Origin: Alkalispirochaeta sp. | GTDB lineage: Bacteria > Spirochaetota > Spirochaetia > DSM-27196 > Alkalispirochaetaceae | NCBI GenBank assembly: GCA_965601925.1 | Contig: OZ271854.1 | Coordinates: 1,280,001 to 1,344,000 of the forward strand | DNA length: 64,000 bases | Direction: 5' to 3' | In this document: piece by piece, positions 15,918-61,900 of the stretch | Position numbering within the stretch: position 1 is the stretch's first letter | Layout of the letters: the number at the start of each line of letters is the position of its first letter | Translations under genes and position numbers: made by a program | The notes under the pieces: generated by a model | The model's database searches: none | The model's input: the letters and a program-made list of their open reading frames with translations, nothing else | What the model was told of the DNA's origin: nothing

Positions 15918-15979
15918 CGCGCCTCTTCCCGGTGCTCTGTCGACGGGGACCGGGCCGGCGGCGTCGATCATTCAGCAGG
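15918..15979 (-). repeat. Degenerate half-copy of the toxin-cassette leader element
   Basis: + strand GGGGACCGGGCCGGCGGCGTCGATCATTCAGCAGG aligns with GGGGACCGGCCGACGGTGTCGATCACTCAGCAGG at 53137-53170. It is preceded by CGCGCCTCTTCCC (compare CGCGTCTCCCCC). Confidence 0.65.
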
Positions 15980-16080
15980 TTCACCGGATGCGTTCCTCGG
16001 ACTCAAGGTCCGGCGGTACGGGAGATCACCCTCGGGGCGCGGGTGTGGCGGTCTCCCGCGGCTTGTGCCACAATCAGAGT

Positions 16081-43551: not shown

Positions 43552-43977
43552 TCACATAGTTGGTGCCAGCCTGTACTCCTCGTACATCTGAATAAAAGCA
43601 TCGGTGACGTACCAATTGGCTGTGAGCGTATAGGTCTCTCCTTGCCGTGATAGCAGGGCGATGTACCCATGAGGCTCGTCGCCGACGGTCCAAGAGATCG
43701 TCAACGGTCGAAAAGATCGATCCGGGTCCGTGCTATACTCCCATATCCCCACAAACGGTCCATCCTCCGTTGTGATCTCCAGGACACCATCGCCCTTGAA
43801 CGATATGCTTCTCCCCACGGAGTCGCCGACGCCTTCAAGGGTCTGATCCAAGATCGACGCCGGTGCGACCAACTCTATAGCCCCTTCGGCCCGCGTCGTT
43901 GTCGACTGTTGGCTCACACACGCCCCTAATGCTGCGATAACGACGAACCCTATCGTCACACGTAACACCTGCTTCAT
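43552..43977 (-). CDS. Small hypothetical lipoprotein
   Basis: AGGAGG RBS, lipobox LGAC, AT-rich upstream region. Confidence 0.75.
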   Translation of the reverse strand: MKQVLRVTIGFVVIAALGACVSQQSTTTRAEGAIELVAPASILDQTLEGVGDSVGRSISFKGDGVLEITTEDGPFVGIWEYSTDPDRSFRPLTISWTVGDEPHGYIALLSRQGETYTLTANWYVTDAFIQMYEEYRLAPTM

Positions 43978-44098
43978 CTAATCCTCCTGAGGCTTCTTTT
44001 TATTAGATTACTGAAGTAATAGCAATATATTATCATATATCACTACTACTTCTTGCAATGTCCGCAACATCGTCGCCGAACTGCTCGGCGTGCTTGAT

Positions 44099-44188
44099 TT
44101 CCGTCGTTGTCCGCGTCGTCGTCCCACATCCGCATCCGGTGAAACGGTACGTCCATCATCGCAAGGCCCCGTCCCAGCCGCGCTTCGT
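44099..44188 (-). pseudogene. 90-bp stub of an orphan toxin cassette (cassette E)
   Basis: Matches 53012-53101 (EARLGRGLAMMDVPFHRMRMWDDDADNDG), then homology stops abruptly. Confidence 0.9.
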
Positions 44189-44553
44189 GTGTTCTCGGGC
44201 GCGTCTCCCCCAAGTTTCAGCCAGGGGACCGGCCGACGGTGTCGATCACTCAGCAGGAGGAACTTGGAGTCGCGCTCGCCACCGCCGTCCGTTCCCCTGC
44301 GGGTTCCAGCAGAGATGTTTCGTCCTCAGGTGATGTGTGGGGGAGACCGGGCTACGGGTTCCAATTCCTCAGCCCGGCTCGGTGTGGTGATAGGTGCTTT
44401 TACAGAAGTCGGACAGCTACATTTACACCGCGACGACCGCTGTTCGGCTCACTTCGGCCGCATACCCGAGCAGCACGCATTGCGTGCGACCAGGGGCCGA
44501 TCGCCAGCGGTCGTCGTCCGGGCCTGTGGGATTTCCTCCCTCCGCCCTCGCGC
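44189..44553 (-). repeat. Cassette leader element, copy E (core plus type-2 extension)
   Basis: The core is near-identical to 53102-53265. The extension is homologous to 49816-49979, with an extra insert in its hairpin loop. Confidence 0.9.
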
Positions 44554-44599
44554 TCGTTCTGTGGTGCAACAACCGTATGAGTGGTGCATCGCAGGTGGC

Positions 44600-45343
44600 T
44601 TACGGGAAGTCTCGCATACTTTCAGACCACTGATCGGGGTGTAACACGGGTCGCAATATCAAATCCCCTTCAAAATCATTCGTCGGATTCTCGATTGGCG
44701 AAATCATACGAAGCCAGAACTCATCGTCTCCATTGCGTTGATCGCGGATCACTTCTATGGTGAGCGCATCGGGTCCAAATGTTCCGTCGGTTTCCATTGT
44801 GTTTTCATCAACCCAACGAACCAAGTGAGTGCCTTGAGGCCAGAACGGCATATACCCATCGCTGATGCGTAAAACATAGTCCCATTCGCCCTCAAGATAA
44901 CGATACTCCGTCTGAAGCTCTTGATCTTGAGTATACCAGAAGCCCGAGAAATCAGGTTCATCCAAATCTTGAGAGTTTTCCGCTCGTCTCTGCGAACCAG
45001 AGAAATATCCTGCATTGAGATTATAGAATATGACACTTTGCCCATTATTGCGAAACTCATATCTGCTCGGATTGTCAAATTGTGCAAGTGATAATCGTAT
45101 GTTCTCATTCGTGTTATCATAATATGTCGTATATCGATCTAAGGCGAACCATCGTCCCTTAACCAATAGTGTTGCCTGATCACGTTCCGGTAGTGCTCGG
45201 AACGTAATCGGATGATCAGGTAACGGCACCAAATCGATATTCTGTACTCCCCACCCGTGCTCAAGGAGATACTCCGTCCGGTCTTGCGCCGGTACACAGG
45301 CAATGCATACAAACACCATGATACCCATCAACATCTTCTGCAT
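44600..45343 (-). CDS. Putative immunity protein (exported/lipoprotein), allele 2
   Basis: Immediately after the toxin-tip stop. Leader MQKMLMGIMVFVCIAC. Paralogue of 47259-48011. AT-richer than the flanks. Confidence 0.75.
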   Translation of the reverse strand: MQKMLMGIMVFVCIACVPAQDRTEYLLEHGWGVQNIDLVPLPDHPITFRALPERDQATLLVKGRWFALDRYTTYYDNTNENIRLSLAQFDNPSRYEFRNNGQSVIFYNLNAGYFSGSQRRAENSQDLDEPDFSGFWYTQDQELQTEYRYLEGEWDYVLRISDGYMPFWPQGTHLVRWVDENTMETDGTFGPDALTIEVIRDQRNGDDEFWLRMISPIENPTNDFEGDLILRPVLHPDQWSESMRDFP

Positions 45344-45357
45344 CTGATCTATCTCCC

Positions 45358-45824
45358 TCAATATCCCGGAACCGTCGGGACCCCATTCGGAACGCTCCAA
45401 TCAATTGAATACTCCAACGGATCCCATGGCATCGCCGGTTGGGGTGTACTCGGCGACACAATAAAGAAATCAAATCGGTGGATCTCGTCCAACCGCACCT
45501 CCGTCCGGTCCGATCCATGTGACGACGGACTTTGATACGGATTCATCAGCTCAATGATCAACTCCCCGTCCTCATCCAGACGGAATCCACTCATCATCGT
45601 CGAATGGTGACTCTCGCCCGATTGGGTACTGTTTAGTCGCACGTGCGCCACAAACGCATTCGTGGAGCGATCCATCCCGTTCAGCAAATCGATCGTTACC
45701 TCCGCACCCTCAAACACTTCCTGAAAGTTGAACCGATCCCCCGTCAGCAGCTCCATCGACTCCTCGACCGTGAGGAGCGTATCGTCGCTGAACGCACCCT
45801 CCTCGCGCAGTCGATTGTTCGCTT
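45358..45824 (-). pseudogene. Truncated duplicate of the papain/C39-like toxin tip
   Basis: Near-identical to 48026-48490. Cut by the IS so that the GYGC (predicted catalytic Cys) segment is missing. Confidence 0.88.
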
Positions 45825-45841
45825 TGACCTGCCCCCTGAAA

Positions 45842-46642
45842 CTAGACCACTGCTTGAGTGAGTCCGTCCTCAAAGCTTCGCCAGATTTCTTCCGGCGTGT
45901 GATTGCCAAGCGAGCTGTGTGGCCGGTACCGATTGTACTCATCGCGCCACAAAGCCAGTTTCTCCTGAGCGTCCCTCACGCCCAGGAACAGGTTCTCGTT
46001 GAGGAACTCGTCGCGTAGCTTTCCGTTGAAGCTCTCGACAAAGGAGTTCTCGATCGGCTTGCCCGGCGTGATCAGACACTGCTGAATGCCGCGCTGGATC
46101 GTCCACGCGATCATGGCCCGGGACGTGAACTCCGGCCCGTTATCACTCTTCAAACATTCCGGCTCACCGTGCATGATCATCGATTGCTCCAACGCCCGGA
46201 TGACATCAGCGCTCGAACATGAACGAGCAATTCGTGCTGTGATCAGATACCGTGTGTACTCGTCCAACACGACCAGACACTTCAACGACCGTCCGGATTC
46301 AGTCGTGTCGAAAACGAAATCCAATCCCCAGATCTGATTGGGCCGCATCGCTGCACTGGCCCTATTGCGCTGCACGATGAGCTTCTTCCGGCGTCGTGAG
46401 CGGAGCATCAACTGTTCCTCGCGATAGATCCGGTACACTTGCTTGTGATTCGCTTCACTATGGTCTCGCCGCAGTAACACGTGGATCCGACGATACCCGA
46501 ACCGCTTGTGCCTCTCGGCCAGTTCCTTGATGCGCGCCCGAATCCGAAGATCGTTCGGGTTCTTTGCCTCATACCGACATGTCGATCGATGCAGCGACGC
46601 CAGTTCGCACGCTCGTCGCTCACTGACCCCATGGTGTTTCAA
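45842..46642 (-). CDS. IS3 transposase OrfB (DDE integrase core)
   Basis: GYRRI, NHK, WGLDF, SDNGPEF, GKPIENSFVESFNGKLRDE, YNRYRPHSSL. Probably fused to OrfA by a programmed frameshift. Confidence 0.95.
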   Translation of the reverse strand: MKHHGVSERRACELASLHRSTCRYEAKNPNDLRIRARIKELAERHKRFGYRRIHVLLRRDHSEANHKQVYRIYREEQLMLRSRRRKKLIVQRNRASAAMRPNQIWGLDFVFDTTESGRSLKCLVVLDEYTRYLITARIARSCSSADVIRALEQSMIMHGEPECLKSDNGPEFTSRAMIAWTIQRGIQQCLITPGKPIENSFVESFNGKLRDEFLNENLFLGVRDAQEKLALWRDEYNRYRPHSSLGNHTPEEIWRSFEDGLTQAVV

Positions 46643-46677
46643 CGCCCCGACAGCCGATCGTCGCTGATGAGGCGTCG

Positions 46678-46941
46678 TCAGTTTTTTGACAGCACCTCCT
46701 TCATCGCGTCGATCTCAAGCGCCTGGTTGGCGACCAGCCTTTTCAGTCTGGTGTTCTCGTCTTCCAGTTCTTTCAGTCGTCGCGCCTCGCTGGTTGTCAT
46801 TCCGCCATAGCGAGATTTCCACCGGTAAAACGTATTCTCCGCAAACCCGTACTTCCGACAGATCTCCTTCGCCGGAACACCGGACTCGGCTTCCCCCAAG
46901 ATCGCAATGATCTTCTCAACCGAATACTGACCCTTCTTCAT
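46678..46941 (-). CDS. IS3 transposase OrfA
   Basis: HTH plus leucine zipper (TFYRWKSRYGGM..RLKELEDENTRLKRLVA). An AAAAAAC slippery-type run lies at its 3' end (46681-46687). Confidence 0.93.
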   Translation of the reverse strand: MKKGQYSVEKIIAILGEAESGVPAKEICRKYGFAENTFYRWKSRYGGMTTSEARRLKELEDENTRLKRLVANQALEIDAMKEVLSKN

Positions 46942-47012
46942 GTTGTCTCTCCCTCCTATTATACCGGGAAAAACTCACCTTCTTGCTGGACCAGTTTTGT
47001 GGGAGCAGGTCA

Positions 47013-47077: not shown

Positions 47078-47078
47078 T

Positions 47079-47185
47079 AAGGATTTGGACACGTCTCCCG
47101 ATGTATCATGAGAGGGAGCGGCGAACGGCGCCGGTCACTCAGCAGGAGGAACCTGAAGTCGCGACCGTCACCGCCCGCCGCTCCC
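47079..47185 (-). repeat. Cassette leader element, divergent copy D (core only)
   Basis: Retains TCACTCAGCAGG, GAAGTCGCG and CGTCTCCC. The stem arms have changed in sequence but remain complementary. Confidence 0.85.
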
Positions 47186-47258
47186 AGCTTTGCATGTGGG
47201 CGTGTCTTATTCTCGGATTAGATAACAGAGTTTGAGGAAGCAGGATTCTTTGGGCAAT

Positions 47259-48011
47259 CTACGGGAAATCTCGCATGGTTTCAGACCGTTGATCGGGATG
47301 CAACACAGGGTGCAATATCAAGTCGCCTTCAAACGCGTTCTCAGGATTCTCGATTGGCGAGACCATACGCAACCAGAACTGGTCTTCTCGCATCATCCGA
47401 TGCTCTTCGATCACCTCAAACACGATGCGGTTCCCAAATGTATCGTCGGTTTCCAACGTGTTCTCGTCGATCCATCGTACGAGATGGGTTCCTTTGGGCC
47501 AAACTCCGGGATGTCCGTCAGCGACAGATAGAGCAAAATCCCAATGCTCCGAGGAGTCAACATAACGATATTCTCTAAACATATCTGGCGATTCCGAGCT
47601 TTGCCAAACACCTTCTAGTGTTAAATTATCCAATGCTGCATCATTATTCTCTACTTTTATGAAATAGCCTGCTAATATATTGAAACGAGCAAGGGTTAAC
47701 TGCAAAGCCCGACCTTCATTCAGAAGCTCGTATCCTAAAGAGTTTGGATCATTGCCTATCGGTTCAATTTGAGTGTCCGTTATAGAATAAGTTTGATAGT
47801 CATTCTCTAGATGAGAAAACGATGCTTTTATGACTTGACGATCATTAACATATTCTGGCAACGACCGAAACGTAATCGGCTGATCAGGTAACGGCACCAA
47901 ATCGATATTCTGTATTCCCCACCCGTGCTCAAGGAGATACGCCGTTCGGTCTTGCGCCGGTACACAGGCAATGCATACAAACACCATGATACCCATCAAC
48001 ATCTTCTGCAT
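47259..48011 (-). CDS. Putative immunity protein (exported/lipoprotein), allele 1
   Basis: Starts 15 bp after the cassette C stop, with a GGAG RBS. Leader ending CIAC. AT-rich middle. Confidence 0.78.
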   Translation of the reverse strand: MQKMLMGIMVFVCIACVPAQDRTAYLLEHGWGIQNIDLVPLPDQPITFRSLPEYVNDRQVIKASFSHLENDYQTYSITDTQIEPIGNDPNSLGYELLNEGRALQLTLARFNILAGYFIKVENNDAALDNLTLEGVWQSSESPDMFREYRYVDSSEHWDFALSVADGHPGVWPKGTHLVRWIDENTLETDDTFGNRIVFEVIEEHRMMREDQFWLRMVSPIENPENAFEGDLILHPVLHPDQRSETMRDFP

Positions 48012-48025
48012 CTGATCTATCTCCC

Positions 48026-49666
48026 TTAATATCCCGGAACCGTCGGGACCCCATTCGGAACGCTCCAATCAATTGAATACTCCAACGGGTCCCATGGCAT
48101 CGCCGGTTGGGGTGTACTCGGCGACACAATAAAGAAATCAAATCGGTTGATCTCGTCCAACCGCACCTCCGTCCGGTCCGATCCATGTGACGACGGACTT
48201 TGATACGGATTCATCAGCTCAATGATCAACTCCCCGTCCTCATCCAGACGGAATCCACTCATCATCGTCGAATGGTGACTCTCGCCCGATTGGGTACTGT
48301 TTAGTCGCACGTGCGCTACAAACGCATTTGTCGAGCGATCCATCCCGTTCAGCAAATCGATCGTTACATCCGCACCCTCAAACACTTCCTGAAAGTTGAA
48401 CCGATCCCCCGTCAGCAGCTCCATCGACTCCTCGACCGTGAGGAGCGTATCGTCGCTGAACGCACCCTCCTCGCGCAGTCGATTGTTCGCCTCAATACCG
48501 GTCATGTCGTCACCGGTCATCGCGTTCGCCGCATACAAGGCACTATACAACACGCATCCGTATCCACCTAATGAGACAAACGGTACCTCGCCTTCGTAGC
48601 CATATTCTCGACTTACAAATGCTCTGTTGTCAGGGTCGGTAGCGAACTCCTCAAACTCCTCGCGACTCAGGCTGCTCTCAAATTCAGAGAGATTACCCTC
48701 AAAGTTAGGACCAGCTTCACGTTGAAGGAACCGATTATACGCATCATCTATCCGTTGTTCGTTGATCTGGTCTACGGTTTCACGGCTCAACGCCTCGCCC
48801 AACGCTTCCCGCCAGTTCGCCGCATCGCTCTGATACTCGCCGGCCGTATTCAACTCAGGGAAGAAATGATCCATCGGCCCTTCATTCGGTCGGTAGTTCT
48901 CCGGGTTCAAGAGCCCCGCCACAATCGCCTGCCCAAACGCCTCGTTCCCTTCCAGTCCCCACGCATCCATCAGGTTTCGGTACGTCTCTCCCGTTCGCCG
49001 GTACGCACTCGCCTCCGTCGTCTCGCCCAATACCGCGCGCTCCACCAGGTGCGTCGCTTCATGCGCCATCGCACTTCCCAACATCGCCGAGCTCTCCCGG
49101 TCGTTCCCCGTCAATGCTCGCGACAACACGATCGTGTCCGGGTTGTCCGAGTCATACCGTCCGTACTCGCCCTCCGCCATATCGTCAAACTCACTCTTAA
49201 TCCGTCGCTCCCACACCGCACCCGCTAAGGCCGTGTCGCGTCGGTCCCGGCTGTACGATAACGTGTTCGCCGCATTCAGGATCGCTCGGTTCTCCACACC
49301 CCGTTGCGTCCCCAACGCGCCGCCGACCTTCGCACTCGTCACCCGTACCACATCCGATAATCCTTCCAGGCTCGTCGCTACCAGGTCCAGTCCGACGTCG
49401 TATCCGCCGCTCCCCACGTTGAACAACGCACCGCCTCCGCCAAGGTCCATCTGCAGCACGCCCGCCGATAACTCGTTCCCCTTCTCGTCGGTGATCCCCA
49501 GCATCCGCCCCATGTTTACCACGTTCAGCGATGCGCTCCCGTCGATCGCGTACTCCGTCGCCGCGCCAATCGCACTCGAGGTGATCGTCGCCGCGCTCCG
49601 TAATGCATCCAAGTTAAAAGTATTCTCCGCGAGGGCATCGCCGATCCCGTCGGTCGTTAGACGCAC
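48026..49666 (-). CDS. Orphan toxin cassette C: alpha module (HEATH) plus papain/C39-like peptidase tip
   Basis: 49002-49650 is near-identical to 60133-60781 of the main toxin. The tip has GYGCVLYS...HHSTMMSG...LMNPY, a Cys-His-Asn order like papain-fold peptidases. Whether it has a real start is uncertain. Confidence 0.75.
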   Translation of the reverse strand: MRLTTDGIGDALAENTFNLDALRSAATITSSAIGAATEYAIDGSASLNVVNMGRMLGITDEKGNELSAGVLQMDLGGGGALFNVGSGGYDVGLDLVATSLEGLSDVVRVTSAKVGGALGTQRGVENRAILNAANTLSYSRDRRDTALAGAVWERRIKSEFDDMAEGEYGRYDSDNPDTIVLSRALTGNDRESSAMLGSAMAHEATHLVERAVLGETTEASAYRRTGETYRNLMDAWGLEGNEAFGQAIVAGLLNPENYRPNEGPMDHFFPELNTAGEYQSDAANWREALGEALSRETVDQINEQRIDDAYNRFLQREAGPNFEGNLSEFESSLSREEFEEFATDPDNRAFVSREYGYEGEVPFVSLGGYGCVLYSALYAANAMTGDDMTGIEANNRLREEGAFSDDTLLTVEESMELLTGDRFNFQEVFEGADVTIDLLNGMDRSTNAFVAHVRLNSTQSGESHHSTMMSGFRLDEDGELIIELMNPYQSPSSHGSDRTEVRLDEINRFDFFIVSPSTPQPAMPWDPLEYSIDWSVPNGVPTVPGY

Positions 49667-49979
49667 CTCCCCCGAGTTTCAGTCAGGGGGACCGGACGGC
49701 GGTGTCGATCACTCAGCAGGCCCTTCGGGCCAGAAGTCGCGCTCGTCACCACCGTCCGTTCCCCAGCGGGTTCCAGCAGAGATGTCTTGTCCTCAGTGAT
49801 GTGAGGTGGGAGACCGGACTACGGGTTCCAATTCCTCGGCCCGGCACGGTGTGGTAATAAGTGCTTTCTACAGAAGTCGGACAGCTGCAGTTACGCCACG
49901 ACGACCGCTGTTCGGCTCACTCCCGATCGCCGGCGGTCGTCGTCCGAGCCTGGAGGATTTTCTCCTTCCACCTTCGCGC
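49651..49979 (-). repeat. Cassette leader element, copy C (core plus type-2 extension)
   Basis: Shares the core hairpin and invariant motifs with the other copies. Extension hairpin CGACGACCGCTG...CGGCGGTCGTCG. Confidence 0.9.
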
Positions 49980-50106
49980 CTCGGCGAGTTGTGCAGCGTT
50001 TGATTCACTCACGCGTTGACGCGCCATGGCGTTCTGTCTTGTTCTTTCAAAAACGGCATGTGGTCCCCCTCCTCCACGATGAGGTTCTGGACACCACACC
50101 CACAGG

Positions 50107-50649
50107 TCAGGGAACGTCATCCCGGGTGATTTCAGTAACCACCGCGTCGATAATCAAGAGGTCTTCTGTTGTAGGTAGCAGCACTTCTATCTGCTCTGCC
50201 GTCACCGTGAAAGTAAAAAACCGTTCCGGCCCTACCTCGTTGCTTACTTCGGTGCCGAGAAACTGAAACAAATAGTACACCGTCATCACTCTTTCGGCAC
50301 GTTCAATGTGCTGCACTTCCGTTCGTGCCGCGCTACTCGCATACTCAACGTATCGAATGCCGGTCTCATCGAGGTAAAACGTTCCAAAATAGAACCCATC
50401 TTCGTCTTCTACGTCGATTGCTGAAAGGTCCGGTATCACCGCGAACAACTCATCGAGTGTTCTCGGCTCCACCGGTTCCTGCACTTCGGAAACAGACTCC
50501 TCAGCCTCCGCCGGTACCGGATCGGCGGTCATGACCTCCCGTGCCGATTCCTCCCGCGCACTTCCGCAACTCCATGCTACGAGAAAAAGGAGCACCACCA
50601 GACTCATCCTCACGACCATCATTCCGCGACTGGTTTGAACGTTTACCAT
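50107..50649 (-). CDS. Putative immunity lipoprotein for cassette B
   Basis: The start overlaps the toxin stop (ATGGTAA). Lipobox-like VAWSC. Confidence 0.78.
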   Translation of the reverse strand: MVNVQTSRGMMVVRMSLVVLLFLVAWSCGSAREESAREVMTADPVPAEAEESVSEVQEPVEPRTLDELFAVIPDLSAIDVEDEDGFYFGTFYLDETGIRYVEYASSAARTEVQHIERAERVMTVYYLFQFLGTEVSNEVGPERFFTFTVTAEQIEVLLPTTEDLLIIDAVVTEITRDDVP

Positions 50650-53126
50650 CGTGGTCTGAACTCCCAGTGCAAGTGCGGTCCCGTCGAGTTTCCGGTATTC
50701 CCCACGTTCCCAAACTGGTATCCCGGCGGGAGGGTGAATCGGTAGATGTCCGTCGCCCGCGCCGCTTGAAGCAGATCGTTGAGTTGGTTCGAGGCACGCG
50801 TATTAGGCTGCAAATGCCCATAGATCATATCGAAGTCGGGCGTCCTGGTTCGCAGATTCAACCCATACCCGGCACTCGGATCATTTGGGTTATCCCACCC
50901 AAGCGGATTCATGCCCACTATCACCGTCTCCTCCTGTGTCGTAAACAACGGATGGTTCTGTCCAAAGGTCCTGAGATCTATTGCCTCACCACCGCCCCAG
51001 CCATGCTCACGGCCATCCTCGTAAAGGGAGAATGTCGAAATGTCATCTCTTCCTTGAATCGGATCGATCACTCGCCCATCGCCGATTAACTCATACATCG
51101 GGTTGTTGTTGTCCAGGCTCCACTCGTCCCGGATTCGACCGAACGCCTGTGCAACGTCGTCTTGCGAGTACTGTTCGTTTCGCTCTGCGTCCAGCAACCC
51201 CGGTGCTCCGAACGACCCGTACCGCTGTCCATACAACGCCGCGTCGTACTCCTGGGCAAATCCCTCCATCGAGTTCGCCGCCTCGTACTGCGCCGCAATC
51301 TCCGGTGTCATCGTACCGTTCCGCAGCGCCGTCATGAAGTCAGTCTCGGCGCTCTCTTGCGCCGCATTCACCGCAGCTACCATGCTCCCACCGAACGCAC
51401 CTACGTTGTCGATGTAGTCCCGCTGCATGAAGTATCGCGCCTTGAAGGCTGCTCCCGGATCAAGGGTATGATCTGCGTCGTTCTTCACGTCCGTCGCCCC
51501 TCCGTTGGTCGTGAACGTCCCGTTCTCATACGTCCACCCGGCGTCGATCATCATCTGGTTCGCCTCGGCCTCCGTGATTCCCAAATGCTCGGCAAGCGAC
51601 GCCGCATAGCCACCCTCTCCCTCAAACTCTCGAAGGAGTTCGTCATTCTCGTCGTATACGCCTTTCCGGCCGTCAAAGATCAACTCGCCTTGTGCGGTGA
51701 GTTTCCAATAATCCGCACTCGAATCATACGCCGTGGCCGCATACGCCGCAAAGTCCCCCTGGCCCGCCTGCGCCTTGAGGTACTGGTTGACGTCCTCGGC
51801 AAGGTTCGCGTCGTTCATGATGAAGTCCATCCCATACGTCTCCGCAGCACGCATCGCAAACTCCGTATGGCCCGTCACCGCGCTCACCGTCTCCGCGTTG
51901 TCCCCGTCCGCGATCCCGTCTCGGTAGCTCTCATGACTCAGCACACTCGCCGCCACCAGCTGCTCCTCCAAACTATCCCCGATCGCTCCCAGGTAGATGT
52001 CCTTCCCATTCCCTCCCGCAATCGTCTGCGCGCGTGCTCCTTCGCTCCCCGGTGCCCCGGTCAGGTGTAGCCGGTCCACTCCCTCCAGGATGTTCCCGTA
52101 AGTACTTCGCTCCCCGCGCTTCCCAAAGCTCCATGTGGCGCGTAACGTGTTCTCCGCCGCGGCGTTGTGCGTGTTCTCCTCGATGTATCGGTCGATCCGG
52201 GCCCGCTGGTGTAGGACGTTCGCTCCCATCATTCCGTTCGCCACCAGGTCGACCCCGATGTCGTAGCCGCCGCTTCCCACGTTGAACAGTGCGCCGTTAC
52301 CGCCCAGGTTCATCTCTAACGCACCCGCCGAGAGGGCGTTCCCCTTCTCATCTTCGATTCCCAGCATCCGGCCCACGTTCAATACGTTAATCGCCACCTC
52401 GCGATCCACCGCATAGTCGACCGCCGCGCCGACCGCATTCGCTCCCAAGCTCACCAGTGAGTTCACCGCACCCATGTGCTCCCGGGAGAATCCCGCCAAG
52501 TCGTCCATCTTCGCCAAACTCCCGAAACCGGACTGCGCCAACCCTTGCGCCGCGCCGCCGGCGTAGCCCGCTACCGCACTCTCGCCGAAGGTCGATCGGC
52601 GGAAGCCCCGTTCGTCAAAGTCCATGTCAAAGCTCGCGTCGATCGAGAATGAGTTGATCGCGCTGCTCATCGCCGTCGTCGCTACCGCCTGCGTCGTGCT
52701 CACCCCCACGTTCACCGCCGTCTGCGTGATCGCTCTGCTGCCGTCGACCGCCTTGCCGGCAAGCGTTCCCAACTGGTCGAATCCCTTCGCCATCCCGGCG
52801 CTCGCCAGGCTCACTGCCGTGCTCTTCGCAAAGCTCCCCAACGCGTCGTCCGCGTCCGCGTATCCCGTCGCGATGTCCGTCACCGTAAACGCCGCATTCG
52901 TCGCGATCGTTGCCGCCAACGATACGCCCGCTCCCGCTCCCAACGTCGCCACCGAGACCACCACTCCCGTTACCGTCACGATGTTCGGGGCGCCGAACAG
53001 TCCGTCCGGACTTCCGTCGTTGTCCGCGTCGTCGTCCCACATCCGCATCCGGTGAAACGGTACGTCCATCATCGCAAGGCCCCGTCCCAGCCGCGCTTCG
53101 TGTGTTATCGGGCGCGTCTCCCCCAA
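50643..53126 (-). CDS. Orphan toxin cassette B: core fragment, beta module and M23-like peptidase tip
   Basis: 52536-53101 matches main toxin 60813-61378, and 51738-53101 matches 55782-57145. Tip motifs H..AIDLR, YGHL, GNVGNTGNSTGPHLHWE. Confidence 0.82.
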   Translation of the reverse strand: MGETRPITHEARLGRGLAMMDVPFHRMRMWDDDADNDGSPDGLFGAPNIVTVTGVVVSVATLGAGAGVSLAATIATNAAFTVTDIATGYADADDALGSFAKSTAVSLASAGMAKGFDQLGTLAGKAVDGSRAITQTAVNVGVSTTQAVATTAMSSAINSFSIDASFDMDFDERGFRRSTFGESAVAGYAGGAAQGLAQSGFGSLAKMDDLAGFSREHMGAVNSLVSLGANAVGAAVDYAVDREVAINVLNVGRMLGIEDEKGNALSAGALEMNLGGNGALFNVGSGGYDIGVDLVANGMMGANVLHQRARIDRYIEENTHNAAAENTLRATWSFGKRGERSTYGNILEGVDRLHLTGAPGSEGARAQTIAGGNGKDIYLGAIGDSLEEQLVAASVLSHESYRDGIADGDNAETVSAVTGHTEFAMRAAETYGMDFIMNDANLAEDVNQYLKAQAGQGDFAAYAATAYDSSADYWKLTAQGELIFDGRKGVYDENDELLREFEGEGGYAASLAEHLGITEAEANQMMIDAGWTYENGTFTTNGGATDVKNDADHTLDPGAAFKARYFMQRDYIDNVGAFGGSMVAAVNAAQESAETDFMTALRNGTMTPEIAAQYEAANSMEGFAQEYDAALYGQRYGSFGAPGLLDAERNEQYSQDDVAQAFGRIRDEWSLDNNNPMYELIGDGRVIDPIQGRDDISTFSLYEDGREHGWGGGEAIDLRTFGQNHPLFTTQEETVIVGMNPLGWDNPNDPSAGYGLNLRTRTPDFDMIYGHLQPNTRASNQLNDLLQAARATDIYRFTLPPGYQFGNVGNTGNSTGPHLHWEFRPRW

Positions 53127-53370
53127 GTTTCAGCCAGGGGACCGGCCGACGGTGTCGATCACTCAGCAGGAGGAACCTGAAGTCGCGCTCGCCACCGCCG
53201 TCCGTTCCCCTGCGGGTTCCAGCAGAGATGTTTCGTCCTCAGGTGATATGTGGGGGAGACCGGGCTCTCCGGGGCTCCGCGGCTGAATCGGCGGGCTACA
53301 CGGTACGCCCGCCTGCCGCTCCGGTCTCACGAAGTGAGACCCACTTCGCGGCCCCTTCGATCCCTCGCGC
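53102..53370 (-). repeat. Cassette leader element, copy B (core plus type-1 extension)
   Basis: Outer IR GTCTCCCCCA (53116) / TGGGGGAGAC (53251) and inner hairpin 53137-53210. The extension is near-identical to 57796-57905. Confidence 0.92.
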
Positions 53371-53559
53371 TTGTTAACGGATGTATTGTCTACGGAAGCA
53401 GCAGGTTGCCGCAGGAGCGTTGTAACACAGGCAATAGCGGATTGGTGGAACAACGCCATGTTTAGTATCACGGCGAGGCGAGACTGTGTCGAGAAAGCAC
53501 CTTGGTGCATTCCCGTTTCTACCAATCACCTGGTTATTGTTGTCATTTCGCCTTAGATA

Positions 53560-54600
53560 CTACGGTCTCTCCTCAGGGGCCAATGCTTGATACTGCACCG
53601 GTCCTGTCGACAAAACCGAACCATCCACAATCCGGCGCTCCAACTCAAACACTTCGCCAATCTCGTATCCCTCACCGAATCCCTCGCTATCCATAGCATA
53701 CACGACTGTGTCGTAATGCTCAGTTGGATCCTCGTCAACAAAGCCGTAGATATAGATGATTGATTGTCTATTTGGCATTCGAAGTACGTTTCGCGTACTC
53801 CAGGTCGCCGTGTTTTCATTGAGAAATAGGAATTGTCCCCCGGGACTTACTTGAAGGATTGTAGGATTGAGATGAAGATGCCCACTGTATACCTGAATGC
53901 TGGGCAGGACATGGGCCGTCGAACCATCCGGTCTATACAGTCGTAGATCGGACGGATCGGTTGGGTCTGTTCCATCCGACGCTCCTATTCCCACAATGTA
54001 CTCACCCCATTGTTCCCAGTCGTAGAAGCTCTCGTTCCTAACGTTCCGTCCCCGGTAAAAGTCGTTTATTGCGATCCGCGCTAACGTTTCGGAATAAGGC
54101 CTAGGCGTTCTTGGTGTTATAGCCGCACGTTGTTCCCGAACTATAATCGGTGTAGTCGGATAAACCGCACCGCTCTCAATCGAATAGACAAACCGCTCAT
54201 ACTCACGTCGAACGCCTGTGGGTGCGGAAGCGTCGATCTCGAATACTACCATAGGAGAGAAAAACATCGACTTGTTATCCCTAGACGGAGTGAGAGAAAC
54301 ACCGAATACTTCGTCGTATGACGCTACTCGTACGACGGTCCCGGCAATGAGGTCCGCCACGAATATGTCGATATTCTGAAGATCTGCTCCCCGTCGTTCC
54401 TCCACGACTTCTCGTATCGGTATGACCAGACGATGATCGTCCAGCCACAGATAGCGAGGTCTTATCTCAGACGCTCCGACAACACTATCAGATACATGCA
54501 CCGCATACTGTAATGCAAGGTACTTTTCGTCCGTAGGCTGCGCGTTTGCCGTTGGTGCGAGCGCCGCCATCAAGGCGACGATTATCCCTACGACTGCCAT
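53560..54600 (-). CDS. Putative exported immunity protein for cassette A
   Basis: Overlaps the cassette A stop. Signal peptide MAVVGIIVALMAALAPTANA|Q. Exact start uncertain. Confidence 0.72.
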   Translation of the reverse strand: MAVVGIIVALMAALAPTANAQPTDEKYLALQYAVHVSDSVVGASEIRPRYLWLDDHRLVIPIREVVEERRGADLQNIDIFVADLIAGTVVRVASYDEVFGVSLTPSRDNKSMFFSPMVVFEIDASAPTGVRREYERFVYSIESGAVYPTTPIIVREQRAAITPRTPRPYSETLARIAINDFYRGRNVRNESFYDWEQWGEYIVGIGASDGTDPTDPSDLRLYRPDGSTAHVLPSIQVYSGHLHLNPTILQVSPGGQFLFLNENTATWSTRNVLRMPNRQSIIYIYGFVDEDPTEHYDTVVYAMDSEGFGEGYEIGEVFELERRIVDGSVLSTGPVQYQALAPEERP

Positions 54601-57600
54601 AGGTTGTGTATATTTCTCATAATCAACTCCATTGCCCAGTCGCTCGCCTCGGGCGTGACGAACTGATCGTCCATCCACGGTATGAGTGAGTGTATATCAT
54701 TTCCGTTCTGTCGGTAGAGATCGATAATCGTATTCGGCATCATCCTGTTAGTCTCATGTCCCCCAAAGATCTTGGACCATGATGTCTCCGGATGCGTACT
54801 AAGAGTAGGATATGTAATGGTAGGGTCTTGCGTTGCCCAAGTGTTCTCGATTGGATCAACTAAAACGTTCGTGATGAAGTCCAAATGTGGTCCGGTAGAC
54901 TCGGCTCCGGTGTTGCCGATACTGCCGATTCTCATTCCCGCCGGCACGCCACTCAATCCTCGCCCCGTTGCGGTTACCCCCCTCGTGCCGAAGACTCCTA
55001 AGTAGTCCATGATGGTGTTCCCGTGGAGGTGGGAATACTGCCCTTGCACTGTCGCGCCAGTCGATATCGTTTGTAAGCCAAAGATCGGATCATCTTGCAA
55101 CTCGACGTGACTCTCTTCCCGCGACCGCACTCCCACTTCACCCCCGGTATACCGGCTGCCGTCCTCTCGATACACCGCAAAGTCTGCGCCCTCGTGATAG
55201 CGATTTGTTGGCTCACCGTGCCGATTCAACCGGAACCGGTGTCCTTGCGGCGAAGTCAACAGCGTATGGTCCCCCTCGCCAGGATAGATGATCGGGTCGC
55301 TCGGATCAAATGGCCCGACATTCGCGTCGTTCTGTATCAGCAAACCGCTACTCTGTGCCGCCACCAACGCCTGGTCCAATGTCGATATCCCTGCGTCCGT
55401 GACGCCGTTCCGCATCAAGTTATCGGCTATCCGCGACACATCCGCGAACTTCTCAGTCCCAGACCGGAATCGTAATAATGTATCCGCGTGCCGACTTGTG
55501 TCCGGTCCCATTCGAAACACACCTGGCTCCGTTGCTGGCGCGTCGGTCACCGCGTCCGCCACCAGATCTATGATCGTCTCGTCCATGTCCTCGTGACGCA
55601 CCCGCCCGTCTTCGGTCAGACCGCTCCCATTTCGACGCAATGCTTCTTCTACCGCCGCTCGCTTGTCCGGCGAAAGCGCACTCAGGTCAAAATCCAGATT
55701 TCCATCTTCCTGCCAGCCCCATTCACCATTCTCATCCTGCACCAACGCCCAGAAGTCCTGGTCCGATCGGTACGCCTGCGTCGCATACGCCGCAAAGTCC
55801 CCCTGGCCCGCCTGCGCCTTGAGGTACTGGTTGACGTCCTCGGCAAGGTTCGCGTCGTTCATGATGAAGCCCATCCCATACGTCTCCGCCGCACGCATCG
55901 CAAACTCCGTATGGCCCGTCACCGCGCTCACCGTCTCCGCGTTGTCCCCGTCCGCGATCCCGTCTCGGTAGCTCTCATGACTCAGTACACTCGCCGCCAC
56001 CAGCTGCTCCTCTAAACTATCCCCGATCGCTCCCAGGTAGATGTCCTTCCCATTCCCTCCCGCAATCGTCTGCGCGCGTGCTCCTTCGCTCCCCGGTGCG
56101 CCGGTCAGGTGCAGCCGGTCCACTCCCTCCAGGATGTTCCCGTAGGTGCTCCGCTCCTCGCGCTTCCCAAAGCTCCACGTGGCGCGCAACGTGTTCTCCG
56201 CCGCAGCGTTGTGCGCGTTCTCCTCGATGTATCGGTCGATCCGGGCCCGCTGGTGTAGGACGTTCGCTCCCATCATCCCGTTCGCCACCAGGTCGACCCC
56301 GATGTCGTAGCCGCCGCTTCCCACGTTGAACAGCGCACCGTCACCACCCAGGTTCATCTCTAACGCACCCGCCGAGAGGGCGTTCCCCTTCTCGTCTTCG
56401 ATCCCCAGCATCCGGCCCACGTTCAGCACGTTAATCGCCACCTCACGGTCCACCGCGTAGTCGACCGCCGCGCCGACCGCATTCGCTCCCAAGCTCACCA
56501 GTGAGTTCACCGCACCCATGTGCTCCCGGGAGAATCCCGCCAAGTCGTCCATCTTCGCCAAACTCCCGAAACCGGACTGCGCCAACCCTTGCGCCGCACC
56601 GCCGGCGTAGCCCGCTACCGCACTCTCGCCGAAGGTCGATCGGCGGAAGCCCCGTTCGTCAAAGTCCATGTCGAAGCTCGCGTCGATCGAGAATGAGTTG
56701 ATCGCGCTGCTCATCGCCGTCGTCGCTACCGCTTGCGTCGTGCTCATCCCCACGTTCACCGCCGTCTGCGTGATCGCTCTGCTGCCGTCGACCGCCTTGC
56801 CGGCAAGCGTTCCCAACTGGTCGAATCCCTTCGCCATCCCGGCGCTCGCCAAGCTCACCGCCGTGCTCTTCGCAAAGCTCCCCAACGCGTCGTCCGCGTC
56901 CGCGTATCCCGTCGCGATGTCCGTCACCGTAAACGCCGCATTCGTCGCGATCGTTGCCGCCAACGATACGCCCGCTCCCGCTCCCAATGTCGCTACCGAG
57001 ACCACTACTCCCGTTACCGTCACGATGTTCGGGGCACCGAACAGTCCGTCCGGACTTCCGTCGTTGTCCGCGTCGTCGTCCCACATCCGCATCCGGTGAA
57101 ATGGTACGTCCATCATCGCAAGGCCCCGTCCCAGCCGCGCTTCGTTCCGATAGAAGTCTTCCATGATCCGGCCCATCTCGCCGTAGCCCGCTTCCTGCAC
57201 TCGCTCCGGGTCGTCGCTCTTCATCACCGGTGCGTAGCCGACGTGGAAGTTGAATAGTCCCTCCGTGTCGTGGTGCAGGTACTCCTCCTCGCCGCTCTCT
57301 TCATTCTCCCGCGTTCGGTCGTAGCCCGCAGCGTGCGTCCAGCTCGCCTCGACCGCCGCAAAGCGCTCTTTGAGCTCGCCGTTCAGCTCTTCGACGCTGG
57401 TCGCCGCGGTCCCGTCGTCCTTCTGGTCGTCGCTCCGTCCAAAGATCAGGATCTGATATCGCTCCATCTCTTCGTACGCCGCCGCGATCATCGTCTGGAT
57501 GCCTCGGCTCGACAGGCCGTCCAACGACTCCTCCGAGAGGTCCACCTGGGGTGCAAAGACCGGCGCCGTAAAGTCATCATACGTTCCCGCCGTCTGCGTC

Positions 57601-57631
57601 TCCCGTTCGATTCCTCCCATCAGCGTCTCGT
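54588..57631 (-). CDS. Orphan toxin cassette A: long core fragment, beta module and M23-like tip
   Basis: 56580-57631 matches main toxin 60813-61864. Tip motifs HEGAD, YSHL, GNTGAESTGPHLDF. The frame stays open into the leader element (to 57728), but there is no evident native start. Confidence 0.82.
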
Positions 57632-57905
57632 GGGACTTCGGGCGCGTCTCCCGCTCGTTCAACCAACGGAACGACCGGCGGTGTCGATCACTCAGCAGGC
57701 CCTTCGGGCCAGAAGTCGCGCTCGCCACCGCCGTCCGTTCCAGGCAGGATGAAGCAGGGGGTGTTTCGTCCTTATGATAGGTTGGTGGGGGAGACCGGGC
57801 TCTCCGGGGCTCCGCGGCTGAATCGGCGGGCTACACGGTGCGCCCGCCTGCCGCTCCGGTCTCACGAAGTGAGACCCACTTCGCGGCCCCTTCGATCCCT
57901 CGCGC
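57632..57905 (-). repeat. Cassette leader element, copy A (core plus type-1 extension)
   Basis: Core hairpin GGAACG...CGTTCC with the invariant motifs. The extension contains GGTCTCAC-gaa-GTGAGACC and GGCGGGC..GCCCGCC hairpins. Confidence 0.92.
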
Positions 57906-58531: not shown

Positions 58532-58951
58532 CTATTTTTGACCGTCTTCTGGAATACGTATACCGTACTCTTCCAGCCTTAGAATATCTTCTCTTGTTGC
58601 TTCTCGATACGTGTTACCAGGGAACTCGCCAGGCCCACTTATCTGTGTAATCTCGATTTCTCCATCATTCATGGATTGCTGAATTGAGTTCAATCCCCCC
58701 GTAGGACTTACATGGTAAATCACACCAGAGTCTGATGTAGCACCGATAGCCACTGAATAGCTATCCCATTCGAGGTCTACGAGCACTACAAACCAGTAGT
58801 TATCAAACTGCCTCAAAATAAGAAACTGTGGAATGAAACTCCCAACATTCCTAGTAGATAGCGTCCAGACACCACCCAAATCATCATTCTGGGCGCTAAG
58901 AGTCGCAACAAATGCAAAAGAGACTATTAGTACAATGATTACTTTCTTCAT
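58532..58951 (-). CDS. Putative exported immunity protein for the main toxin
   Basis: Starts 14 bp after the toxin stop, with a GAGAGGA RBS. Signal peptide MKKVIIVLIVSFAFVATLSA|Q. AT-rich. Confidence 0.8.
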   Translation of the reverse strand: MKKVIIVLIVSFAFVATLSAQNDDLGGVWTLSTRNVGSFIPQFLILRQFDNYWFVVLVDLEWDSYSVAIGATSDSGVIYHVSPTGGLNSIQQSMNDGEIEITQISGPGEFPGNTYREATREDILRLEEYGIRIPEDGQK

Positions 58952-58964
58952 CTTTATCCTCTCA

Positions 58965-61900
58965 TTAATGTTCCCAGGGTCGGGCACTCCAGTGCCGCCA
59001 CGAACGGAATAGATTGATTTCCCAACCGGTTATGTTACCACCATCATCATACACTGGATCATACCTTGTGCCGGGAAACTGCGATCCATCAAACCACCCT
59101 TCTCCGGTTTGAGGATTAGTGAAACCTGGTCCATGTTCCGGATGATTCCATATTCGTTCATGGTGTGCGTGAGCACCGCTCCCAGTGCCATGCAAACTAG
59201 TTGGAAAAGGTGCAATCTGCTCACCGGCTCCTATGATATCCCCAATGGCATGTCCTACTAAATCATCCGGATTCATATGCAAGATACGATCGGCATAACT
59301 CGTTCCTAAGACACTCAACAGAATCCCGTCCGTTGCATCCGCTCCCGGTATCACTTGTGCATAGCCAGGAGCAAATACTCCGATACCACCGGCCGTATCG
59401 ATTGCCGGATGTGCATAGTCCAGCCGCGCGGGACCTTGGATGTCAATCATCTGGCGCTCTGTGCGGAACCCTTGTGTAATCTCGGCTTCGGGTGTCACCC
59501 CCATGCTCGGCAACAAATACTGCTCGTTGTATGTTCCCATGCGCTGCTGCACGTCGCTCCACACCGCATTCGCCATCTGATAATCGCCATTCACCACCAA
59601 CTCTTCATACGCATTCAAAAGCCCGTCAATGGCGTCCCGTTCCGCTACCTGTTCCGTGATTCTGTCGCTCTCCTGGAATACCAACGACTCCTCAAGGCTT
59701 CGTGGGTTCCCGGCGGACGTCACGTACTCTTGTCCGTTCCACTCCGCGCCGGACGACGTCATCAGCGCATACGCCATGTCGGCGTCCGTCATATTCATGA
59801 CCTCTTCAGCGGGATATCCCGCCGCGACCAGATGGGCCACCGCATTACCCTCACCGACGTACTCCAACAGCGACTCACTGTATCCTAACTGGTGTCCTGT
59901 TTCGTCTACCGCAACATCGATAACGCGCCCAGTATCGGCATCGCGTAATGCTCGCTCTCCATTCCAGGTGATCCTCCCATCACGATGACGCGAAAAGTAG
60001 TCCACCGGTCCTCGATTGGGGAGGTAATTCTCAGGATTCCGTAACGCATCCTCAATCGCTTGTGAGAAATCCGCATCACCCTCCAACCCAAAGACATCCT
60101 TCAAGCGCTCGTATGTCTGCAGTGTTCGATTATACGCACTCGCCTCCGTCGTCTCGCCCAATACCGCACGCTCCACCAGGTGCGTCGCTTCATGCGCCAT
60201 CGCACTTCCCAACATCGCCGAGCTCTCCCGGTCGTTCCCCGTCAATGCTCGCGACAACACGATCGTGTCCGGGTTGTCCGAGTCATACCGTCCGTACTCG
60301 CCCTCCGCCATATCGTCAAACTCACTCTTAATCCGTCGCTCCCACACCGCACCCGCTAATGCCGTGTCGCGTCGGTCCCGGCTGTACGATAACGTGTTCG
60401 CCGCATTCAGGATCGCTCGGTTCTCCACACCCCGTTGCGTCCCCAACGCGCCGCCGACCTTGGCACTCGTCACCCGTACTACATCCGATAATCCTTCCAG
60501 GCTCGTCGCTACCAGGTCCAGTCCGACGTCGTATCCGCCGCTCCCCACGTTGAACAACGCACCGCCTCCGCCGAGGTCCATCTGCAGCACGCCCGCCGAT
60601 AACTCGTTCCCCTTCTCGTCGGTGATCCCCAGCATCCGTCCCATGTTTACCACGTTCAGCGATGCGCTCCCGTCGATCGCGTACTCCGTCGCCGCGCCAA
60701 TCGCACTCGAGGTGATCGTCGCCGCGCTCCGTAATGCATCCAAGTTAAAAGTATTCTCCGCGAGGGCATCGCCGATCCCGTCGCTCGTCAGGAAGTTCCC
60801 CACCATGCCGTTCGCCAACCCTTGCGCCGCGCCGCCGGCGTAGCCCGCTACCGCACTCTCGCCGAAGGTCGATCGGCGGAAGCCCCGTTCGTCAAAGTCC
60901 ATGTCGAAGCTCGCGTCGATCGAGAATGAGTTGATCGCGCTGCTCATCGCCGTCGTCGCTACCGCCTGCGTCGTGCTCACCCCCACGTTCACCGCCGTCT
61001 GCGTGATCGCTCTGCTGCCGTCGACCGCCTTGTCGGCAAGCGTTCCCAACTGGTCAAATCCCTTCGCCATGCCCGCGCTCGCCAGGCTCACCGCCGTGCT
61101 TTTCGCAAAGCTCCCCAACGCGTCGTCCGCGTCCGCGTATCCCGTCGCGATGTCCGTCACTGTAAACGCCGCATTCGTCGCGATCGTTGCCGCCAACGAT
61201 ACGCCCGCTCCCGCTCCCAACGTCGCTACCGAGACCACCACTCCCGTTACCGTCACGATGTTCGGGGCGCCGAACAGTCCGTCCGGACTTCCGTCGTTGT
61301 CTGCGTCGTCGTCCCACAGCCGCATCCGGTGAAACGGTACGTCCATCATCGCAAGGCCCCGTCCCAGCCGCGCTTCGTTCCGATAGAAGTCTTCCATGAT
61401 CCGGCCCATCTCGCCGTAGCCCGCTTCCTGCACCCGCTCCGGGTCGTCGCTCTTCATCACCGGTGCGTAGCCGACGTGGAAGTTGAATAGTCCCTCCGTG
61501 TCGTGGTGCAGGTACTCCTCCTCGCCGCTCTCTTCATTCTCCCGCGTTCGGTCGTAGCCCGCGGCGTGCGTCCAACTCGCCTCGACCGCCGCAAAGCGCT
61601 CTTTGAGCTCGCCGTTCAGCTCCTCGACGCTGGTCGCCGCGGTTCCGTCGTCCTTCTGGTCGTCGCTCCGTCCGAAAATCAGGATCTGATATCGCTCCAT
61701 CTCTTCGTACGCCGCCGCGATCATCGTCTGGATGCCTCGGCTCGACAGGCCGTCCAACGACTCCTCCGAGAGGTCCACTTGGGGTGCAAAGACCGGCGCC
61801 GTAAAGTCATCATACGTTCCCGCCGTCTGCGTCTCCCGTTCGATTCCTCCCATCAGCGTCTCGTCGATAATCACGCGTCGTTGCCACTCCATTCCTTGAC

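What the first reader, a model, noticed from the sequence alone, without database searches (positions are those of the whole stretch)
47114..47185. Covariation and G-U pairs show the leader hairpin is selected, and favour the toxin-sense strand
Seen: on the minus strand, copy D folds as GGGAGCGGCGGGCGGUGACGGUC / GACCGGCGCCGUUCGCCGCUCCC (22 of 23 paired, three of them G-U). Copy B uses different arms, GGGGAACGGACGGCGGUGGCGA / UCGACACCGUCGGCCGGUCCCC. Above the stem all copies keep the same architecture: a 3-nt GCG bulge, an ACUU/GAGU helix (ACUC/GAGU in copy E, turning G-U into G-C), a 2-nt CU bulge, then one of two interchangeable caps (CAGG-uuccu-CCUG in B and D, varied in E; GGCCC-gaa-GGGCC in A and C). 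Inference: the stem sequence is free to vary while the bulged apical region is invariant. That is typical of a protein-binding or catalytic site in an RNA or ssDNA. On the plus strand the G-U pairs would be A-C mismatches.
Basis: partly seen in the sequence, partly recalled or inferred. Interest (0 to 1): 0.85.

Follow-up and report, generated by a model that had tools for sequence, protein, structure and literature searches.

The report
Hairpin repeat joining orphan toxin cassettes
The hairpin is one arm of a repeated, folded DNA element scattered through this bacterium's genome, and its precisely defined end marks the points where spare toxin cassettes were cut out of toxin genes, hinting at how such arsenals are built.

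Summary
The hairpin and its covariation are real, and the minus strand folds better. It is not a toxin leader. It is an optional arm of a ~160-400-nt non-coding repeat with 30 copies in this genome: 10 at three polymorphic-toxin loci, 20 elsewhere, none before an intact toxin gene. The repeat's 5' module is a derived Flavo-1 motif (Rfam RF01705). Relatives without the hairpin occur in other spirochetes, Bacteroides conjugative plasmids (upstream of ardC) and microvirus-like phages. Caps are C-GNA-G triloops in 12 of 14 simple triloop caps, which favours folding as single-stranded DNA. The new point: orphan toxin fragments begin exactly 16 nt after the element's GGGAG, at ACG (one ATG), at five to six independent sites. 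A homologue lacking the hairpin sits at four such joints in another family's genome, one of them in an unrelated Rhs system. Best reading: a non-autonomous ssDNA element whose right end is joined to AC sites inside toxin genes, creating orphan cassettes. The enzyme is unidentified. RNA function and passive accumulation remain open; nothing supports catalysis.

The parts
47114..47185 (-). Copy D hairpin (the finding): long stem, conserved purine-rich internal loop, variable cap
47079..47230 (-). Copy D core, lacking the 5' Flavo-1-like module; joint to toxin fragment near 47078/47079, 16 nt past GGGAG, at ATG
57632..57905 (-). Copy A, full element; joint to orphan toxin at 57631/57632 (ACG)
53102..53373 (-). 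Copy B, full element; joint at 53101/53102 (ACG)
49651..49985 (-). Copy C, full element; joint near 49650/49651 (ACG; could lie about 10 nt further in)
44189..44557 (-). Copy E, full element with the clearest Flavo-1-like 5' module; same joint as B
15920..15987 (-). Partial copy outside the toxin locus
58965..64000 (-). 3' part of the intact ~3150-aa polymorphic toxin-like gene (continues beyond the window)
   Evidence: toxin role inferred from the array and from M23 domains in paralogues
58532..58987 (-). Putative immunity gene (inferred from position; no family hit)
54588..57631 (-). Orphan toxin fragment A
53560..54678 (-). Putative immunity gene
50643..53101 (-). Orphan toxin fragment B, weak M23 peptidase match (E 4e-4, below cut-off)
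50107..50649 (-). Putative immunity gene
48026..49650 (-). Orphan toxin fragment C
47259..48068 (-). Putative immunity gene directly before copy D
45825..47012 (-). IS3-family element (3 genome copies) splitting orphan D
44600..45942 (-). Rest of orphan D and its putative immunity gene (duplicate of the C module's 3' part)
44097..44188 (-). 93-nt toxin remnant after copy E

Best explanation
The hairpin is an accessory arm of a non-coding, non-autonomous dispersed element of the Flavo-1 type. Its anatomy on the toxin-sense strand is: Flavo-1-like module, then helix P1, then a fixed right end 16 nt past GGGAG. The element most likely acts while the DNA is single-stranded, folding on this strand. 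An enzyme supplied in trans joins the right end to AC(G) sites. When a copy lies after an immunity gene, joining its right end to a site upstream inside the toxin gene gives a unit of [toxin 3' part - immunity - element]. That unit re-enters a toxin locus by homologous recombination and builds the orphan array. Shown: the repeat family, covariation, strand bias, fixed joint geometry, enrichment at toxin loci and homology to Flavo-1. Inferred: action as ssDNA, the circular intermediate, the order of events and the enzyme (the intact integron integrase or another host or HUH enzyme).
For: There are 30 copies against 0 hits in the reversed genome; 10 of 30 lie in 1.1% of the genome (p about 7e-13, copies not independent). 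Toxin homology starts at the same offset in A, B/E, the first copy of the second toxin locus and C. D and the second copy there fit when compared by eye with sister orphans. ACG is the start at 5 of 6 sites against a 5% background. Two targets resemble the element's own left end (background fraction 0.007 and 0.0015). G028, another family, has a homologue with the same ends at 3 immunity-to-orphan joints and 1 Rhs joint. G019 has one after an immunity-like gene in its toxin locus, and in G009 a copy lies between two Rhs pieces. Flavo-1 link: bridge copies in relatives score 25-40 bits and match genome copies by blastn (best E 7e-7). An HMM built without G000 sequences puts 4 of its 9 hits (E<=5) on known copies. 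ssDNA: 12 of 14 simple triloop caps are C-GNA-G, with all four N. The motif occurs in microvirus-like contigs and in 53 plasmids, 48 of them conjugative.
Against: No enzyme is tied to the element. G000 has no Y1 transposase, RT, IS110, TnpB or Rpn, and its IS91-like gene is split over two frames. Neighbouring genes are unrelated to each other. The integron integrase also occurs in G004 and G030, whose arrays lack this element. No circle or empty-site joint was seen in contigs of one sample. Of the six targets, three do not resemble the left end (0.30-0.58) and one is borderline (0.06). The G028 offsets vary: 10-11 nt past GCGCC, and only one could be checked against a donor. The G009 joint may be shorter than 16 nt. 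G000 copies themselves score no Flavo-1 hit at E<=1. In microviruses the GNA-bearing strand is opposite to the coding strand, which (recalled) is the packaged one.
Confidence: 0.52

Rival explanations
1. Passive model. A selfish repeat inserts at AC sites by an unknown transposase. Insertions inside toxin genes, followed by homologous recombination between copies, give the same joints. Toxin arrays are merely tolerant landing zones.
For: 20 of 30 copies are at unrelated genes, many flush with stop codons as REPs are (PMC3733652 passages). An AC(G) core is seen at both ends of several copies. Same-genus Flavo-1 copies sit in toxin-antitoxin-rich islands. Arrays in G004 and G030 form without this element.
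Against: No intact toxin gene interrupted by a whole copy was seen in G000. All copies at toxin or Rhs loci (10 in G000, 4 in G028, 1 in G019, 1 in G009) have one orientation; only about three of these loci are independent, so this is weak.
Confidence: 0.22
2. RNA element. The structure works in the toxin operon transcript as a processing, stabilising or terminating site between cassettes, or as a small RNA (the original Flavo-1 proposal).
For: G-U wobble bias and good RNA folding on the toxin-sense strand. Rfam lists Flavo-1 as a putative sRNA. It is sense to the operon at every toxin locus.
Against: GNA triloops rather than GNRA or UNCG tetraloops. Eleven non-toxin copies face a convergent gene's stop (9 within 30 nt, 2 read by eye). 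Flavo-1 hits in Flavobacterium were indifferent to strand and often untranscribed (PMC9723704 passage). An RNA role does not explain fixed DNA joints. No terminator or promoter match lies on any copy.
Confidence: 0.13
3. ssDNA promoter or priming origin (Frpo/ssi-like). Synthesis starts at the folded element, and joints arise when the nascent strand switches template onto toxin DNA by 3-5 nt of microhomology.
For: The motif lies upstream of ardC in a Bacteroides plasmid and in 5 of 13 viral-collection contigs that share one element type (ardC seen in 4, Pfam-checked in 1). It lies between VP2 and the replication gene in microvirus-like contigs. GNA hairpins mark priming sites and N4 promoters (PMC13037366 passages); Frpo acts so in F (PMC9849209 passages).
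Against: No -35/-10 boxes on the copies (sigma-70 scan only). It does not explain 30 dispersed copies. The strand logic differs between plasmids and microviruses.
Confidence: 0.1
4. Ribozyme, intron or retron-like RNA that splices or primes toxin cassettes.
For: Five of six joints are in frame with a codon run at the element's end. P1 encloses a long hairpin, loosely as in retron ncRNA (recalled).
Against: No Rfam match and no RT in G000. One joint is out of frame. The hairpin is absent in G028. No frame runs through the hairpin, because the caps differ by 4 nt.
Confidence: 0.03

Closest known systems
Flavo-1 RNA motif (Rfam RF01705; Weinberg 2010, PMC2864571)
   Same: The 5' module has the same two repeated motifs around a variable stem and the same GCG..AGGG start and AGCCCG end. 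It is a multi-copy intergenic repeat, and relatives in the order score up to 46.5 bits.
   Different: G000 copies are too derived to score. A fixed joining end and a link to toxin arrays were not found in the searches run.
REP/REPIN repeats and MITEs (GTAG and CGTC families, PMC3733652)
   Same: Dispersed, palindromic, often flush with stop codons. GTAG or ATAG is read at the right joint of several copies, and CGTC in P1.
   Different: 160-400 nt with multi-loop structure, against 20-40 bp. No RAYT/Y1 gene in G000. The joint lies 8 nt beyond the imperfect inverted repeat, with no target duplication seen.
Integron attC sites
   Same: Single-strand hairpin with strand bias, variable terminal structure and an AC/GT crossover-like core. 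An intact IntI (401 bits) and true attC sites exist in G000.
   Different: No paired AAC/GTT R boxes; no copy was among the 24 attC-like candidates. Copies lie outside the integron array.
IS91/ISCR oriIS one-ended transposition and Tn916/Tn554-type ends (recalled)
   Same: One fixed end joined to variable upstream sites, which mobilises adjacent DNA; a short variable stretch between a conserved arm and the target.
   Different: No cognate intact transposase beside any copy. The IS91-like gene in G000 is split and has no element hit next to it.
Orphan toxin/immunity arrays (cdi, rhs; recalled, search listing only)
   Same: An intact gene followed by 5'-truncated toxin-immunity modules.
   Different: Here each module is bounded by a conserved structured element at a fixed distance from the break.

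Membership tests
Flavo-1 (RF01705) | Score at or above the gathering threshold (42 bits) | tested here: not met
   0 hits in G000 at E<=1; none in the window.
Flavo-1 (RF01705) | Two repeated motifs around a variable stem, with AGGG start and AGCCCG end | tested here: met
   Present in derived form in copies C, E, A and B; bridge copies score 25.7-40 bits and match genome copies. Absent from copy D.
Flavo-1 (RF01705) | Expressed as an RNA | not testable with these tools
   No RNA holder listed.
attC site | Complementary R'' (AAC) and R' (GTT) boxes closing the hairpin, L box with extrahelical bases | tested here: not met
attC site | Integron integrase available | tested here: met
   TIGR02249, 401 bits; also in genomes whose arrays lack the element.
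REP/RAYT | GTAG tag at the foot of a 20-40 bp palindrome | tested here: inconclusive
   GTAG or ATAG at the joint in several copies, but it coincides with host stop codons and is absent at most toxin joints.
REP/RAYT | RAYT/Y1 transposase in the genome | tested here: not met
   0 hits, genome 96.7% complete.
DDE-type MITE | Terminal inverted repeats flush with a target duplication | tested here: not met
   The imperfect repeats are subterminal; 8 further nt precede the target.
IS110/IS1111 | IS110 transposase present | tested here: not met
IS91/ISCR ori end | Adjacent intact Y2 transposase | tested here: not met
   One split gene elsewhere.
Retron / group II intron / DGR | Reverse transcriptase and the family's RNA motifs | tested here: not met
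Frpo/ssi-type ssDNA signal | Promoter or priming activity on ssDNA | not testable with these tools
   Context only.

The most novel reading that the evidence does not exclude
Flavo-1 is not a small RNA but a widespread folded-ssDNA signal, used by microviruses and plasmid leading regions. In these spirochetes it has been recruited as a cassette boundary: its right end is recombined site-specifically into toxin and Rhs genes, so it generates and recycles orphan toxin-immunity modules.
Probability: 0.3. Interest if true: 0.85.

Novelty: new variant of a known kind. Interest (0 to 1): 0.62.

Why it matters
How orphan toxin-immunity modules first arise is, to my knowledge (recalled), unresolved; here the break points lie at a fixed distance from a conserved element, so the step can be tested directly. 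It also gives a first functional lead for Flavo-1, a motif without known function since 2010, and suggests that it works as DNA.

Tried and rejected
Rfam found nothing meaningful in the window or at 18 other copy loci or at 7 related loci. Exact hairpin patterns: 0 of 60 relatives, 0 in GTDB. Metagenomes: 6 hits, 3 near-identical to the G009 locus and 3 chance. Model R1 found 1 of 16 other same-genus genomes and 1 of 69 other order genomes; most are fragmented, so absence is not shown. Plasmid and phage blastn with the window element found nothing; two short queries gave only chance plasmid hits, and the phage collection gave one partial hit. A combined viral pattern gave 0. Fourteen downstream regions of toxin homologues in other genomes showed no element and no orphan (several contigs end early). 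No RNA holder listed. Contigs of one sample cover the region and show no circle joint; contigs drop rare variants. The first attC scan was too strict and was redone. The in-frame bias is not treated as evidence: 5 of 6 joints are in frame, and ACG lies in that codon position in 48 of 105 cases, so the site preference alone explains much but not all of it. Hammerhead, k-turn, T-box, SRP and group II domain V resemblances (recalled) were dropped for lack of any Rfam match. Earlier scan notes: none.

Full report
Observation. Copy D (47114-47185, minus) pairs 22 of 23 positions with three G-U, as described. All five window copies fold better on the minus strand, as RNA and as DNA. On 15 genome copies, 95.6% of cells pair and 7 of 21 pairs change on both sides (relatedness inflates the shuffle control). 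The apical register is open. Folding programs prefer CGC/GUG under a GAC..UGA loop, and that middle pair holds in 25 of 25 copies with three pair types. These 25 are the copies that fitted one regex, of 32 sites tried (7 did not fit).

Setting. The window end is a polymorphic-toxin-like array on the minus strand: an intact gene of about 3150 aa, then four 5'-truncated toxin fragments each with a putative immunity gene, and a 93-nt remnant. The toxin and immunity labels are inferred; the only family hits are M23 peptidase in two fragments and the IS3 that splits orphan D. The genome is a spirochete; the one GTDB record that matched a 37-nt pattern is titled Alkalispirochaeta sp..

The hairpin belongs to a dispersed repeat. 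An HMM found 37 hits: 30 distinct copies, one copy split in two hits, and 6 opposite-strand self-hits. The reversed genome gave 0. A covariance model found 25 matches. Ten copies lie at three toxin loci, always after an immunity-like gene or a previous copy and never before an intact toxin gene. Twenty lie beside unrelated genes (one search scanned the neighbours in 19 loci). Nine of these end within 30 nt of a convergent gene's stop, and two more do so on reading.

The right end is precise. Against the three intact toxin genes, homology starts 16 nt after the element's GGGAG, at ACG, in A, B, E (same site as B) and the first copy of locus 2. C fits too, but similarity may begin about 10 nt earlier. 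D (ATG) and the second copy of locus 2 gave no junction hit and were placed by eye against sister orphans. ACG has a 5% background. Two of the six targets resemble the element's own left end, one is borderline and three do not. Several left ends also read AAC or ACG before the conserved start.

Other genomes. G028 (another family, one contig) has four full homologues. Three lie at immunity-to-orphan joints of the homologous toxin array and one between an Rhs toxin-immunity pair and an Rhs fragment. G019 has a hairpin-bearing copy after an immunity-like gene of its toxin locus and a second weak one nearby. G009 has a copy between two Rhs pieces. Against generality: G030's joints carry other repeats with Rpn or HicA cargo, G004's array has none, and 14 further toxin-downstream regions show neither element nor orphan.

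Identity. The 5' module is a derived Flavo-1 motif. I saw the table row in PMC2864571, searched its supplements and read part 50 of file 5; the supplementary text on this motif was not found and may bear on prior knowledge. Rfam RF01705 hits 11 of 99 order genomes at E<=0.01, one above the cut-off, and many are the loci that my pattern found in 14 of 99. These short members also carry P1 and, in many, a GCGCCC-like end. G000 itself has no hit; the link rests on shared inserts and blastn and on a weak independent HMM. A passage of PMC9723704 reports that Flavo-1 hits are indifferent to strand and often untranscribed.

DNA or RNA. Of 14 simple triloop caps, 12 are C-GNA-G with GAA, GGA, GTA and GCA; the other 11 caps are larger or carry inserts. 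Passages of PMC13037366 describe GNA mini-hairpins as far more stable in DNA than in RNA and as parts of priming sites and N4 promoters. The motif occurs in 4 of 6 viral hits that are microvirus-like (three closely related), always antisense to the genes and, in those three, between VP2 and the replication gene. It occurs in 53 plasmids, 48 conjugative, and upstream of ardC in the one opened. Rfam scores 7 of these 11 loci as Flavo-1 at 32-37 bits. This favours a folded-ssDNA role but does not prove it.

Mechanism. The fixed end, the AC core and the one-sided capture of upstream DNA fit a join between the right end and a site inside the toxin gene, then re-entry by homologous recombination (inferred). 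The enzyme is unknown. Y1, RT, IS110, TnpB and Rpn were not found. An intact integron integrase and a split IS91-like gene are present, but the copies lack attC boxes. The passive model, insertion followed by recombination between copies, gives the same joints and is the main rival.

Novelty. Literature searches on Flavo-1, RF01705, orphan toxins with hairpins, spirochete toxins, attG sites and microvirus origins (listings only) showed no report of this link. The library lacks most subscription journals. PMC3733652 and PMC9849209 were seen as passages. Verdict: a real, selected structure, misread as a leader; a new variant of a known but unexplained motif, with an unexpected and testable tie to orphan toxin formation.

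Noticed in passing
L064 (G000 3,560,000-3,572,000): Intact integron integrase with an attC cassette array; IS1182 copies are inserted right at attC sites. The attC loops share short motifs with the element's modules.
   Followed up: partly
L103-L104 (G030 toxin array): Joints are bounded by an attC-like hairpin at the immunity stop codon and a second repeat. They enclose either an Rpn/Transposase_31 gene (4 of 4 in that genome lie here) or a HicA-type module: a second, different junction element.
   Followed up: partly
L164, L167-L169: Flavo-1 motif in microvirus-like contigs, antisense to the genes; a candidate origin or promoter signal.
   Followed up: partly
L182 5548-5632; L171, L173, L174, L179: Flavo-1 motif upstream of ardC in a Bacteroides conjugative plasmid and related elements. 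The plasmid region also carries tet(X2) and ere(D).
   Followed up: partly
G000 1,522,600; 1,529,100; 2,060,600; 2,356,800; 4,987,900: A second hairpin module (33 matches, 0 in the reversed genome) forms tandem arrays of 47-100 nt units and is inserted into the caps of several copies.
   Followed up: no
window 45825-47012: IS3-family element inserted 66 nt into orphan D; three copies in the genome.
   Followed up: partly
L070 (G000 3,753,900-3,755,200): IS91-family transposase gene split over two frames.
   Followed up: partly
L137: Flavo-1 copy beside a WYL/WCX regulator and a Cas1-like ORF (the latter label recalled; no Pfam hit on the fragment).
   Followed up: no
window 43552-43977: Lipoprotein-like gene ends the array; a similar-looking gene ends the G030 array (by eye).
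   Followed up: no
G000 821,000-841,600: Cluster of small immunity-like genes with a left-end-only copy of the element next to a broken transposase.
   Followed up: no
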